A stretch of DNA of 52,288 nt from Escherichia phage vB_EcoM_Bp10, in sequence record MN122072; one strand, 5' to 3'. Positions 30,271-30,987 of this stretch are shown here, one piece after another. The position numbers and the translations under genes are program-made. A model generated the notes under the pieces. It worked only from the letters and a program-made list of their open reading frames with translations, was not told the origin of the DNA and did no database searches. How positions within the stretch are numbered: the stretch's first letter is position 1; every line of letters starts with the position of its first letter.

Positions 30271-30569
30271 CGATTATATGTGAGAAGAGATTCGATGCGT
30301 TAGCGTCGTTTCTCTTTGAGCTAGAATAAAACAAGTAAATTAAATATTTATTTATTCCCAATATTGCTACAATATTAAGAGTAATATTAGGAATGCGTAA
30401 AGTTAAAACCAAATGGTACATGGTCGGTCAACTGTACCTGGATAGTAATTCGTTCACGGTCAGTCAGCTGTATCTCCTTCGGAGAAGTTATCTCGCCGAA
30501 ATTTGTTCGAATGGAAAACCGACTATTAAATAATTTTTTTTTATAATTTTTTTTTTATTTTCAATATTG

Positions 30570-30660
30570 CTACAGAATTAATGAGACTCAAATTGTTTCA
30601 ATATTATCGAGACTCGAATTGTTACGATATTAATGAGACTAGAATTGTGGCAATTGCTCA
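30570..30660 (+). repeat. three tandem copies of an approximately 27-bp unit (TAATGAGACTCAAATTGTT-like)
   Basis: gaattaatgagactcaaattgtttc / atcgagactcgaattgttacg / ttaatgagactagaattgtggc, consecutive, about 300 bp upstream of the RNA polymerase gene. Confidence 0.5.
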
Positions 30661-30903
30661 CTTCGCTCGCTTTATATTATAATTTTTTATTTTTTGGGAC
30701 GGCGAGGAGGGGGAAGTTGTGACATTATTTTTTTAAAATTTTTATCTCCGAGGAGGGGAAGCCCAACGTCCTATCGGACTTAAATACGGTCCCTACTCCA
30801 ACTTTTTCCTACAGCCTATCGGCTTTCAAACAACACCAAGATAGGCGCTTCGCTTATAAGTCAAGGTCAAAGGCAATCAGAGTACGCTGTTGTAACGTGC
30901 TAG

Positions 30904-30927
30904 TCTCACCATTAGTTGGTTGTGATT
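30904..30927 (+). promoter_or_regulatory. copy of conserved motif, candidate phage promoter
   Basis: tctcaccATTAGTTGGtTGTGatt, about 60 bp upstream of the RNA polymerase start. Confidence 0.4.
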
Positions 30928-30987
30928 ATGAATAGGCTACGCAAGTCTAATCCGTTTCAGTTAAATCATAATCAATTGGAGACTATC

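What the first reader, a model, noticed from the sequence alone, without database searches (positions are those of the whole stretch)
30271..30987. Repeat-rich leader upstream of the RNA polymerase gene
The 0.7-kb gap holds homopolymeric T and A runs, three tandem copies of a 27-bp unit, a purine-rich direct repeat CGAGGAGGGG(G)AAG at about 30706 and 30750, two copies of CAATATTGCTACA and a promoter-motif copy. The density suggests a regulatory hub or a packaging or genome-end region.
Basis: seen in the sequence. Interest (0 to 1): 0.5.

Follow-up and report, generated by a model that had tools for sequence, protein, structure and literature searches.

The report
Phage genome end and control region
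This repeat-rich 0.7-kb gap is where, in related phages, the packaged linear chromosome starts (the left edge of a ~3-kb terminal repeat), next to the signals that end late and start early transcription; this is a known feature of this phage family and is ordinary.

Summary
The tandem unit is 26 bp (3.2 copies, 30566-30648), not 27. The purine repeat is at 30703 and 30749. CAATATTGCTACA is exact at 30359 and 30562. The phage-promoter motif is at 30911. The only homopolymers of 7 nt or more in the 52 kb lie in this gap.

The window is a Carltongylesvirus-like Chaseviridae phage. This family has linear genomes with 2.3-3.2 kb direct terminal repeats (DTRs) whose first gene is the T7-like RNA polymerase.

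In six relatives from five genera the reported left genome end maps to window 30775-30780. It sits inside a 45-bp block (30751-30795) that is almost invariant in 16 close relatives. The right DTR border maps to 33768|33769. A seventh relative (PYps23T) reports different borders, but its left one (30920|30921) is still inside the finding.

The gap therefore joins the unique right end to the DTR. In order it carries a late terminator hairpin, conserved motifs, T-runs with two sigma70-like promoters, a copy-number-variable repeat array, the end site, a phage promoter and the polymerase leader.

The array is made of degenerate copies of a 17-bp quasi-palindrome, found almost only beside the two DTR borders, also in phage PM1.

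The ends are not measured for this phage. New member of a known kind; modest interest.

The parts
29170..30270 (+). nrdB (ribonucleotide reductase small subunit). It is the last gene before the gap and the last gene of the unique right end of the genome.
   Evidence: Pfam PF00268, E = 2e-48. Same gene order (holin, endolysin, nrdB, gap, RNA polymerase) in flopper, Mangalitsa, PYps23T and JL1.
30284..30317 (+). Two-tier hairpin followed by a U-rich tail. It looks like an intrinsic terminator that closes the late transcription unit.
   Evidence: RNA fold -22.5 kcal/mol, z = -4.1, 0 of 200 shuffles as good. The terminator scan found the inner stem at 30293-30308 plus a T-rich tail. It is nearly invariant in all 16 aligned relatives.
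30359..30376 (.). Best copy of the 17-bp quasi-palindromic element AATATTG-N3-CAATATT (here CAATATTGCTACAATATT).
   Evidence: Exact match. Invariant in 16 relatives. Also present upstream of the end site in PM1, Y2, a Faunus-like phage, UViG47563 and 4HA13.
30411..30533 (+). Doubtful micro-ORF (MVGQLYL...). It overlaps two copies of the conserved DNA motif GGTCGGTCAAYTGT (30422-30435 and 30458-30471).
   Evidence: The frame is open in all 16 close relatives and every indel is in frame. Against coding: a 1-nt indel separates it from the only Shine-Dalgarno/ATG (30393), there is no third-position bias, there is no PHROG or Pfam hit, and it stops after 7 codons in UViG47563. The DNA motif itself is kept across genera.
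30519..30547 (+). Sigma70-like site Pa: CCGACT, 17 nt, TATAAT. The TATAAT sits between the T9 and T10 runs.
   Evidence: Found with relaxed criteria at the same alignment column in 11 of 16 relatives. It does not pass the stricter built-in scan.
30534..30561 (.). T-runs (T9, TATAA, T10, A, T4).
   Evidence: Two of the three homopolymers of 7 nt or more in the window, the T9 and T10 runs. Present with length variation in all 16 relatives and in Y2, PM1, Faunus-like, UViG47563, UViG14912 and 4HA13.
30562..30657 (+). Tandem array with a 26-bp period. It consists of four degenerate copies of the 17-bp element (30563, 30589, 30615, 30641), each followed by AATGAGACT. The second CAATATTGCTACA opens it.
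   Evidence: Tandem Repeats Finder, the repeat finder, element scan, GAGACTNRAATTGT exact three times. Copy number is 2.2-3.7 in the relatives in which TRF detects the 26-bp array (GJ1, flopper, 2KOFFS). Y2 has a different 12/24-bp array. Some genera have no array.
30653..30672 (.). 20-bp insertion TTGCTCACTTCGCTCGCTTT.
   Evidence: In the alignment it is present only in the window and TH37, and at another position in GJ1.
30654..30683 (+). Sigma70-like site Pb: TTGCTC, 18 nt, TATAAT. Relatives have TTGACG or TTAACG, 18 nt, TATTAT at the same place.
   Evidence: A conserved -10 position in all 16 relatives, spread over two adjacent alignment columns. The GJ1 GenBank record annotates the homologous site as a putative host sigma70 promoter.
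30703..30761 (+). The two purine-rich copies (30703-30716 and 30749-30761). They are the ends of a diverged duplication of about 46 bp covering the module 'TTGTGRCA, T-run, purine tract'.
   Evidence: The duplication is present only in the window, EcoM1, MLP1 and TH33. The second copy is the conserved one, 13-15 nt upstream of the end site.
30751..30795 (.). Almost invariant block GGAGGGGAAGCCCAACGTCCTATCGGACTTAAATACGGTCCCTAC. It is the inferred recognition and cutting site for the left genome end.
   Evidence: Identical in the 16 close relatives apart from GGAGCAG for GGAGGGG in 2KOFFS and JL1 and one A indel. The core CCTATCGG...AAATACGGTCCCT is kept in Y2, PM1, Faunus-like, UViG47563 and UViG14912.
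30775..30780 (+). Inferred first base of the packaged genome, which is the left border of the DTR.
   Evidence: Ends of relatives mapped onto the window: JL1 and Myduc 30774|30775, Y2 and PM1 30776|30777, Mangalitsa and 4HA13 30779|30780.
30768..30779 (.). Mini-palindrome 1: GTCC TATC GGAC. It contains the end site.
   Evidence: Two stem pairs change on both sides in PM1 and Faunus-like (TCCC...GGGA). 83% of cells are paired against 13-50% in slid controls. The fold is thermodynamically weak.
30813..30824 (.). Mini-palindrome 2: AGCC TATC GGCT. It is a second copy of CCTATCGG, 45 nt downstream of the first.
   Evidence: CCTATCGG occurs only at 30770 and 30815 in the window. Repeat family D3. 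Conserved across genera.
30911..30925 (+). Copy of the phage-type promoter motif ATTAGTTGGNTGTGA, 77 nt upstream of the polymerase ATG.
   Evidence: ATTAGTTGG is invariant at this position in 16 relatives. The same motif is annotated as a putative phage promoter in the GJ1 and SA91KD records.
30935..30942 (+). Invariant GGCTACGC core of a small leader hairpin in the polymerase 5' UTR.
   Evidence: RNAalifold helix at columns 269-285, with changes on both sides in 3-4 of 10 sequences at three of its four outer pairs (one sequence at the fourth).
30978..33102 (+). [quoted passage not shown]
   Evidence: Pfam PF00940, E = 1e-19. 97% identical to the Mangalitsa polymerase.
30775..33768 (+). Inferred DTR (about 2,994 bp). 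It holds the polymerase gene, a 66-aa ORF, a terminator (33358-33373) and a second promoter motif (33428).
   Evidence: The JL1 record carries both DTR copies (2,995 bp), and both of its ends match the window exactly over 30 nt. DTR lengths in relatives are 2,608-3,234 bp.
33752..33774 (+). Right DTR border: purine tract GAAAGAAGAGAAGAAG followed by TC|GGAC.
   Evidence: TCGGAC lies at both borders (30774 and 33767) and occurs only 9 times on the + strand of the window.
33829..34082 (.). Copies of the 17-bp element on the right flank (33829, 33840, 33956, 34066), just outside the right DTR border.
   Evidence: 8 hits against 0.39 expected, and 7 of the 8 lie in the two non-coding regions beside the DTR borders. 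The same pattern holds in PM1.

Best explanation
The gap is the concatemer-junction and left-end control region of a Chaseviridae (Carltongylesvirus-like) phage.

In replicating DNA, one copy of a ~3.0-kb DTR (window 30775-33768) lies between the unique right end (ending with holin, endolysin, nrdB) and the unique left end.

Reading the gap from left to right:
1. A strong hairpin (30284-30317) ends late transcription.
2. A set of conserved cis elements follows: the 17-bp quasi-palindrome AATATTG-N3-CAATATT, the GGTCGGTCAAYTGT motif, and T-runs around a TATAAT.
3. A 26-bp tandem array, built from degenerate copies of the 17-bp element, lies between two sigma70-like sites (-10 at 30542 and 30678) that point at the polymerase gene.
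4. A purine tract plus the almost invariant block 30751-30795 marks where the packaging nuclease makes the left genome end (30775-30780).
5. The first 210 bp of the DTR carry a second CCTATCGG mini-palindrome, a phage-promoter motif (30911) and a structured leader before the RNA polymerase gene.

Shown here: the repeats, their conservation pattern, the mapping of relatives' ends, and the distribution of the motifs.

Inferred:
- That this phage's own virion DNA ends here.
- That terminase recognises the purine tract plus a TCGGAC-like core found at both borders.
- That the DTR is regenerated by strand-displacement synthesis, as proposed for T7.
- That the sigma70-like sites drive early expression only of the polymerase copy preceded by the whole gap (the right-end or concatemeric copy), because they lie outside the DTR.
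- That the 17-bp elements are binding sites for a dimeric protein (small terminase or an early regulator) that marks the DTR flanks.

The extra purine copy and the exact number of 26-bp units are most likely neutral duplication and slippage products.
For: Family assignment:
- 63-70 phage records match, all Chaseviridae-type, with 84-96% identity for the closest.
- The family is described as linear, terminally redundant and non-permuted, with ~3-kb terminal repeats (PMC12842549). DTRs were shown or predicted for Y2, PM1, PYps23T, Mangalitsa, 4HA13 and Myduc (PMC8762354; PMC6753284; PMC9699118; PMC6872899).

End mapping:
- Six records from five genera place the left end within 6 nt, at window 30775-30780.
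- Right borders coincide in the alignment, after a purine tract and at a (A/G)TC(G/C)|G core.
- The JL1 left and right ends match the window exactly over 30 nt.

Conservation:
- The 45-bp block around the end varies among 16 relatives only in 2KOFFS and JL1 (GGAGCAG for GGAGGGG) and by one A indel, and its core is kept across genera.
- The window is a circular permutation opened at a gene start, so its own ends are not physical ends.

Other elements:
- Terminator hairpin: z = -4.1, nearly invariant.
- Sigma70-like sites conserved at two columns only. GJ1 annotates one of them.
- Phage-promoter motif with a roughly 23-nt consensus at + strand sites, most of them intergenic.
- 17-bp element: 8 hits against 0.39 expected, 7 of them beside the DTR borders. 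Replicated in PM1: 5 distinct sites against 0.37 expected, four in the border flanks and one inside the DTR.
Against: - No read-start, restriction or run-off data exist for this phage. The end position is transferred by homology.
- PYps23T reports a 2,339-bp DTR whose two borders both lie right after ATTAGTTGGA in two promoter-motif copies (window 30920|30921 and 33437|33438).
- The GJ1 authors proposed a circularly permuted genome, and PhageTerm called headful packaging for the Loessnervirus Fifi44. The large terminase groups with T1-like headful enzymes.
- The sigma70-like sites fail the stricter scan. On the + strand of the gap it finds none, and overall 2 sites against 2.8 expected.
- Single-stranded DNA folding around the end site is no better than shuffled sequence (z = -0.17).
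- Covariation in the mini-palindromes rests on two sequences.
- The tandem array and the purine duplication are not conserved as such.
- No binding protein is identified.
Confidence: 0.75

Rival explanations
1. The 26-bp tandem array, the second purine copy and the 20-bp insert have no function of their own. They are slippage and duplication products tolerated in a spacer. Only the end site, the terminator and the promoters matter.
For: Copy number varies from about 2 to about 4 among close relatives (TRF 2.2-3.7 where the array is detected), and some genera have no array. The 46-bp duplication is in only 4 of 16 relatives, and the 20-bp insert in 2-3. The purine repeat alone is borderline against chance.
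Against: The array units are copies of a 17-bp element that is otherwise confined to the DTR flanks in two genera. The first unit is fully conserved. Y2 and Myduc carry different tandem arrays at the same place, which points to selection for an array as such.
Confidence: 0.3
2. The region is a replication origin. The repeated 17-bp or 26-bp units are iterons for an initiator. The adjacent T-runs are the DNA-unwinding element. The nearby phage promoter primes or activates replication, as at T7 origins.
For: At least four direct repeats lie next to the most AT-rich stretch of the region (25% GC at 30500-30699). The T-runs are conserved. A phage-promoter motif is nearby. From general knowledge, T7 origins combine phage promoters with AT-rich DNA, and phiOL sits near the T7 left end.
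Against: The 26-bp period puts successive sites on opposite faces of the helix, unlike typical iterons. The element also occurs on the far side of the DTR. No initiator gene is identified. The GC-skew profile shows no switch here. The array is missing in some genera.
Confidence: 0.15
3. The gap is only a transcription control region (late terminator, early host promoters with operators, polymerase leader). This phage has no fixed end here because it packages by the headful mechanism from a permuted concatemer.
For: The GJ1 genome was proposed to be circularly permuted. PhageTerm called headful packaging for Fifi44. The large terminase is T1-like. The terminator, the sigma70-like sites and the promoter motif are present.
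Against: Six relatives in five genera have end positions that agree to within 6 nt on the left, and within 1 nt (four of them) to about 5 nt (Mangalitsa, 4HA13) of the same site on the right. Headful cutting would not give this. ICTV describes the family as non-permuted. The terminase of PYps23T is 97% identical to that of GJ1, yet PYps23T has DTRs.
Confidence: 0.1
4. The genome ends lie at the phage-promoter motif, as reported for PYps23T. The DTR would then run from just after ATTAGTTGGA at 30920 to the same point in the next copy at 33437 (about 2.5 kb). This would imply that the phage RNA polymerase or its promoter helps to form the ends.
For: In PYps23T both reported borders fall at the identical position of two promoter-motif copies. 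From general knowledge and PMC3276506, T7 RNA polymerase pausing at the concatemer junction is needed for maturation.
Against: Six other relatives, studied with several methods (PhageTerm three times, wet-lab work twice, one record with both copies), agree on a different site about 140 nt upstream. The PYps23T junction was read from a PCR product of ligated DNA. Its sequence is what template switching or recombination across the shared 10-nt ATTAGTTGGA would produce. PM1 has no TTAGTTGG upstream of its polymerase gene.
Confidence: 0.07

Closest known systems
Long DTR termini of Chaseviridae (Erwinia phage vB_EamM-Y2, Pectobacterium phage PM1, Escherichia phages Mangalitsa, 4HA13 and JL1, Proteus phage Myduc)
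   Same: Same position: 210-225 bp upstream of the RNA polymerase start codon in most, 419 bp in 4HA13. Same end sequence (CC-TATC-GG, then AAATACGGTCCC). The polymerase is the first gene inside a 2.6-3.2 kb repeat. The right border has the same sequence context.
   Different: Ends were not measured for this phage. It carries a diverged 46-bp duplication of the purine module and a 20-bp insert that most relatives lack, and 3.2 rather than about 2 array units.
Bacteriophage T7 concatemer junction and left end: terminal repeat flanked by arrays of short repeats, phiOL/phiOR, host promoters A1-A3, and a polymerase pause site needed for maturation (general knowledge; PMC3276506, PMC13236587)
   Same: The terminal repeat is bracketed on both sides by arrays of a short repeated element. 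A phage promoter and host-type promoters lie next to the end. A single-subunit RNA polymerase is an early gene. All genes are on one strand.
   Different: The repeat is about 3 kb rather than 160 bp and contains the polymerase gene itself. The candidate host promoters lie outside the repeat rather than inside the left end. The virion is a myovirus and the large terminase is T1-like. The repeated element has an unrelated sequence.
Lambda cos (cosN nicking site next to cosB terminase-binding repeats)
   Same: A sequence-specific cutting site with partial two-fold symmetry lies beside an array of repeated elements that could bind the small terminase.
   Different: Relatives have blunt or near-blunt ends with a 3-kb direct repeat, not 12-nt cohesive ends. 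Two different border sites are used. No IHF site or R-site homology was found.
Iteron-type replication origins (lambda ori, plasmid oriV)
   Same: Direct repeats of about 17-26 bp next to a very AT-rich tract.
   Different: The 26-bp phasing differs. No initiator gene is linked. The element is also found 3 kb away on the other side of the DTR. Copy number is unstable among close relatives.

Membership tests
Chaseviridae DTR left terminus | Lies in the non-coding gap upstream of the T7-like RNA polymerase gene, which is the first gene of the repeat | tested here: met
   The mapped end at 30775-30780 is 208-213 bp upstream of the ATG at 30988. The polymerase is confirmed by PF00940. Spacing in relatives is 210-225 bp.
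Chaseviridae DTR left terminus | Conserved end sequence (purine tract, CC-TATC-GG, AAATACGGTCCC) | tested here: met
   Identical in 16 close relatives apart from GGAGCAG for GGAGGGG in 2KOFFS and JL1 and one A indel. The core is kept in Y2, PM1, Faunus-like, UViG47563, UViG14912 and 4HA13, and more loosely in Myduc.
Chaseviridae DTR left terminus | A second, sequence-specific border about 2.6-3.2 kb downstream | tested here: met
   The homologous right border is at 33768|33769. The JL1 end matches the window exactly. The borders of four relatives (JL1, Y2, PM1, Myduc) coincide; Mangalitsa and 4HA13 lie about 5 nt to either side.
Chaseviridae DTR left terminus | A physical DNA end, with the segment duplicated at both ends of virion DNA of this phage | not testable with these tools
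   No reads or virion DNA are available. The window is a collapsed circular permutation opened at a gene start.
Single-subunit (T7-like) RNA polymerase promoter | A conserved motif of about 20-23 bp, repeated on the coding strand at intergenic sites | tested here: met
   Consensus CTGAAACATTAGTTGGATGTGA. 17 matches against 6.5 expected, nearly all on the + strand, and most exact copies are intergenic. The copy at 30911 departs from the upstream half of the consensus.
Single-subunit (T7-like) RNA polymerase promoter | Transcription by the phage polymerase starts at the motif | not testable with these tools
   ICTV states that promoters of the family have not been identified experimentally.
Sigma70 promoter | -35 and -10 hexamers with a 16-18 nt spacer | tested here: inconclusive
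   The strict scan finds none on the + strand of the gap. A relaxed scan finds two positions conserved in 11 of 16 and 16 of 16 relatives. None lies between the end site and the polymerase ATG.
Intrinsic terminator | A stable GC-containing hairpin followed by a U-rich tract at the end of a transcription unit | tested here: met
   It lies 14 nt after the nrdB stop codon and is nearly invariant in 16 relatives. The U tract is interrupted (UUUCUCUUU).
pac-type headful packaging site | One fixed initiation cut, imprecise ends downstream, and a permuted population | tested here: not met
   Right ends of six relatives fall at or within about 5 nt of the same homologous site. This rests on relatives only.
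Iteron replication origin | Three or more direct repeats next to an AT-rich unwinding element, plus a cognate initiator | tested here: inconclusive
   The repeats and the AT-rich tract are present. No initiator was identified. The array is absent in some genera.
Known RNA families (Rfam) | A match to a curated covariance model | tested here: not met
   No match with E up to 1 in 30150-31050.

The most novel reading that the evidence does not exclude
The two borders of the long terminal repeat may be set by a common cis-acting code that has not been described. It would consist of a purine tract followed by a TCGGAC-like core at each border. Clusters of a 17-bp quasi-palindrome (AATATTG-N3-CAATATT) occur almost only just outside the repeat on both sides, with single copies inside it near its right end. 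This arrangement is seen in at least two genera. A corollary: the only sigma70-like promoters for the polymerase gene lie outside the repeat. If so, only the right-end (or concatemeric) copy of the gene can be read by the host enzyme, and the left-end copy depends on the phage promoter. If true, this small and genetically tractable E. coli phage would offer defined sites for studying how long exact terminal repeats are cut and regenerated, a step that is still poorly understood.
Probability: 0.25. Interest if true: 0.55.

Novelty: new member of a known kind. Interest (0 to 1): 0.3.

Why it matters
For annotation, the result shows where this circularly permuted assembly should be opened: position 1 at about window 30775-30780. 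It also shows that about 3 kb (30775-33768) is present twice in the virion, so the packaged genome is about 55.3 kb rather than 52.3 kb.

For biology, it gives a base-level map of the cis elements around a long-DTR border in Chaseviridae. Promoters of this family have not been identified experimentally, and published statements on its packaging conflict (DTR, headful, permuted). The paired border motifs and the flanking 17-bp elements are concrete, mutable targets for testing how such ends are made. They would also help in designing packaging-competent vectors or engineered therapeutic phages of this group.

Tried and rejected
- Rfam at gathering and at E-value thresholds found nothing in the gap.
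- tRNA or tmRNA: none in the gap.
- A protein-coding reading of the gap was rejected. The 46/40-aa ORF has no Pfam or PHROG family. A frameshifting indel separates it from its only Shine-Dalgarno/ATG. There is no codon-position bias. It is truncated in a more distant relative. I kept it only as a doubtful micro-ORF.
- A strong single-stranded DNA structure at the end site was rejected (z = -0.17).
- An outer inverted repeat (GGAGGGGA / TCCCTACTCC) centred on the end looked attractive in RNAalifold. It is broken in JL1, 2KOFFS and Y2, so I did not rely on it.
- An alternative pairing of GGAC with the downstream GGTCC is not maintained in PM1 or the Faunus-like phage (read by eye from the alignment).
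- An extended -10 reading of TGCTACAAT within the 17-bp element does not hold in Y2 (TGTCTCAAT).
- Sigma54, CRP, LexA and IHF readings of the motifs were considered from memory and dropped because the spacing was wrong.
- The IMG/VR scan with the polymerase returned only 9 loci, mostly copies of GenBank phages.
- The original GJ1 paper (PMC2223254) is not held, so its promoter and permutation arguments were taken second-hand from GenBank features and from papers that cite it.
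Full report
**What is in the sequence**

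- Tandem Repeats Finder reports a 26-bp unit (not 27), 3.2 copies, at 30566-30648.
- CAATATTGCTACA is exact at 30359 and 30562.
- The purine-rich repeat is at 30703 and 30749.
- The promoter-like motif ATTAGTTGGTTGTGA is at 30911.
- The three T-runs in the gap (T9 at 30534, T10 at 30547, T7 at 30728) are the only homopolymers of 7 nt or more in all 52,288 bases.

Repeated 10-mers are about 20-fold more frequent than in Markov simulations (13 against 0.65, 0 of 2000). The gap is AT-rich (35.7% GC against 44.2%). It matches no RNA family. It has no credible protein-coding content.

**What the window is**

BLAST against phage genomes finds only Chaseviridae-type myoviruses. These include Carltongylesvirus phages such as JL1, flopper, Mangalitsa, ST32 and phiEcoM-GJ1, and more distantly Erwinia, Pectobacterium, Yersinia, Proteus and Aeromonas phages.

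The ICTV profile describes the family as linear, terminally redundant and non-permuted. It gives terminal repeats of about 3 kb and says the promoters have not been identified experimentally (PMC12842549).

The window is a circular permutation opened at a gene start, with an open frame running through the junction. Its own ends therefore say nothing about the physical ends.

**Where the genome ends map**

I took every relative whose record or paper states the ends and mapped them onto the window.

| Relative | Basis | Left end in the relative | Window position |
|---|---|---|---|
| Mangalitsa | DTR 1-3234, PhageTerm | ...CCTATCGGAC\|TTAAAATACGG | 30779\|30780 |
| 4HA13 | DTR 1-3120, PhageTerm | same base as Mangalitsa | 30779\|30780 |
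| Y2 | DTR 2,608 bp | ...CCTGTCG\|GACTTAATAATACGG | 30776\|30777 |
| PM1 | DTR 2,665 bp | ...CCCTATCG\|GGAGATAAATACGG | 30776\|30777 |
| JL1 | record carries both copies, 2,995 bp | ...CCTAT\|CGGAC | 30774\|30775 |
| Myduc | DTR 3,202 bp, PhageTerm | ...CCCTAT\|CGGGAG | 30774\|30775 |

So six records from five genera, obtained by different methods, agree to within 6 nt. The JL1 left-end and right-end 30-mers occur exactly in the window.

The right borders also coincide in an alignment. They follow a purine tract and a (A/G)TC(G/C)|G core, which gives window 33768|33769. That agreement argues for two sequence-specific cuts rather than headful measuring. The inferred repeat is therefore 30775-33768, about 2,994 bp.

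**The one dissenting relative**

PYps23T is reported to have a 2,339-bp repeat (PMC8762354). In its record both borders fall immediately after ATTAGTTGGA, in two copies of the promoter-like motif. On the window these are 30920|30921 and 33437|33438.

That junction was read from a PCR product of ligase-treated DNA. Its sequence is what template switching or recombination across the shared 10-nt motif would give. I therefore regard it as probably artefactual, but I cannot exclude real biology. Either way the left end is still inside the finding.

**Conservation of the gap**

A MAFFT alignment of the gap from 16 close relatives shows four kinds of sequence.
- Nearly or fully invariant:
  - the hairpin after nrdB (30284-30317; -22.5 kcal/mol, z = -4.1);
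  - the CAATATTGCTACAATATT element;
  - the first array unit;
  - the 45-bp block GGAGGGGAAGCCCAACGTCCTATCGGACTTAAATACGGTCCCTAC (30751-30795), which contains the end site and differs only in 2KOFFS and JL1 (GGAGCAG for GGAGGGG) and by one A indel.
- Conserved but length-variable: the T-runs.
- Conserved as a feature but with varying copy number: the 26-bp array, with TRF copy numbers of 2.2-3.7 where it is detected and about 2 to 4 units in the alignment.
- Sporadic: the second purine copy, which belongs to a diverged 46-bp duplication present in only 4 of 16 relatives, and a 20-bp insert at 30653-30672.

In other genera the order of elements is the same: terminator, 17-bp element, GGTCGGTCAAYTGT motif, repeats, T-runs, purine tract, end site, AAATACGGTCCC, second CCTATCGG. 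The tandem array, however, is replaced by a different one (Y2, Myduc) or is missing.

**Fine structure at the end**

The end lies in a mini-palindrome, GTCC-TATC-GGAC (30768-30779). A second one, AGCC-TATC-GGCT, follows 45 nt later (30813-30824). CCTATCGG occurs nowhere else in the window.

In PM1 and a Faunus-like phage, two stem pairs of the first palindrome change on both sides (TCCC...GGGA). The pairing exceeds slid controls (83% against 13-50%). This rests on two sequences, and folding energy gives no support. I treat it as a symmetry constraint on a protein site, not as a proven hairpin.

TCGGAC sits at both borders of the window and of JL1 (30774 and 33767; only 9 + strand copies in 52 kb). 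CGGAC-like cores recur at most reported borders of 4HA13, Myduc, Mangalitsa and Y2, but not at the PM1 right border. Each is preceded by a purine tract.

**The repeats as one family**

The 26-bp units are degenerate copies of a 17-bp quasi-palindrome, AATATTG-N3-CAATATT, each followed by AATGAGACT.

With up to 2 mismatches the element has 8 hits in the window against 0.39 expected. Seven of them lie in the two non-coding regions just outside the DTR:
- 30360, 30563 and 30589 to the left of the left border (a fourth array copy at 30615 has three mismatches and was read by eye);
- 33829, 33840, 33956 and 34066 to the right of the right border.

All six exact CAATATTG octamers in the window lie between 30359 and 34076.

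The pattern repeats in PM1, a different genus. Hits occur only at 52265 and 52276 (left of the left border), at 2726 and 2865 (right of the right border), and once inside the repeat. The expectation is 0.37.

This resembles the arrays of short repeats that bracket the T7 terminal repeat (general knowledge). It is the least expected result of the analysis.

**Transcription signals**

The ATTAGTTGG motif has a roughly 23-nt consensus (CTGAAACATTAGTTGGATGTGA), lies almost only on the + strand, and most exact copies are intergenic. The GJ1 and SA91KD records annotate it as a putative phage promoter. A review states that the family uses similar promoters throughout the genome (PMC8472413).

The built-in sigma70 scan finds nothing on the + strand of the gap. 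A relaxed scan over the alignment finds only two conserved positions:
- -10 at 30542-30547 (CCGACT, 17 nt, TATAAT; 11 of 16 relatives);
- -10 at 30675-30683 (16 of 16 relatives; GJ1 annotates this one).

None lies between the end site and the polymerase ATG. If these sites are real, the host polymerase can reach only the polymerase-gene copy that is preceded by the whole gap, that is the right-end or concatemeric copy.

RNAalifold also finds a small leader hairpin around the invariant GGCTACGC (30935-30942), with compensatory changes.

**Most likely mechanism, and what is shown versus inferred**

Shown:
- The repeats are real and non-random.
- The conservation pattern is as described.
- The relatives' ends map here.
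- The 17-bp element is confined to the DTR flanks.

Inferred:
- During packaging, terminase recognises the purine tract plus the TCGGAC-like core and cuts at 30775-30780 and, one genome length later, at 33768.
- The repeat is regenerated by strand-displacement synthesis, as proposed for T7.
- The hairpin stops late transcripts before the junction.
- The sigma70-like sites and the phage promoter drive the polymerase gene.
- The 17-bp elements bind a dimeric protein (small terminase or an early regulator).

The extra purine copy and the exact number of array units are probably neutral.

Rivals are a replication origin, a purely regulatory region in a headful phage, promoter-located ends as in PYps23T, and non-functional slippage products. 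They are listed separately with their evidence.

**Novelty and verdict**

That Chaseviridae genomes begin a little upstream of the polymerase gene, with a ~3-kb repeat, is already known and is annotated in several GenBank records. The flopper record even marks repeat regions here. This window is a new member of that kind.

As far as I could find, the following have not been described:
- the element-by-element map;
- the shared border motif;
- the restriction of the 17-bp quasi-palindrome to the DTR flanks.

These are leads rather than findings. Interest is modest. The practical value is correct genome opening and length, plus a set of testable cis elements for how long terminal repeats are made.

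Noticed in passing
window 33353-34485: A second large gene-poor region, downstream of the polymerase operon, contains the inferred right DTR border (33768|33769). It has five or more same-strand copies of (G/C)GCATGT(A/T)AA, often followed by AATATTG, two phage-promoter motifs (33428, 34287) and a terminator (33358-33373). Myduc, PM1 and 4HA13 have the same GCATGT repeats. It sits where T7 has its primary origin, just after gene 1. It could be an origin or a second promoter class.
   Followed up: partly
L004/L005 (PYps23T, MW147598) record positions 52530|52531 and 2339|2340; window 30920|30921 and 33437|33438: The published 2,339-bp DTR of PYps23T has both borders at the identical position of two phage-promoter motif copies (…ATTAGTTGGA|). 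This is about 140 nt and 330 nt away from the borders found in six other relatives. It is either a PCR or recombination artefact across the 10-nt identity, or a sign that the promoter takes part in end formation.
   Followed up: partly
window 30873-31160 and relatives: The leader and the 5' end of the polymerase gene come in two allelic types. One type (window, 2KOFFS, TH33, TH37, Mangalitsa, JL1) has a polymerase of 704 aa where the gene was checked (window, Mangalitsa, JL1). The other type (GJ1, ST32, flopper, PYps23T and others) has about 646-648 aa. The switch point is near 30873, which suggests recombination inside the terminal repeat.
   Followed up: no
window 45019-45115 and 44003-45292, 45530-46639: The only tRNA (Leu, anticodon CAG) is 97 nt long, with a 23-nt insertion in the D-loop region of the Rfam alignment. 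It lies in a 1.3-kb stretch without long ORFs, followed by another of 1.1 kb. A T-arm-like sequence recurs at 46674-46698 (80% identical to the tRNA T-arm). This area has the highest density of repeated 10-mers in the window.
   Followed up: no
window 1 and 52288: The window starts at an ATG, and the reading frame across the end-to-start junction is open. The record is therefore a circularised assembly opened at a gene start, not at a physical end. One DTR copy is collapsed, so virion DNA should be about 55.3 kb.
   Followed up: partly
window 30422-30435 and 30458-30471; relatives: The motif GGTCGGTCAAYTGT (one or two copies, 36 nt apart here) is conserved between the terminator and the T-runs in several genera (Y2, PM1, 4HA13, Myduc, UViG47563). 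Deletions in TH37, BSBP01 and TH24 collapse the two copies into one. Its function is unknown.
   Followed up: partly
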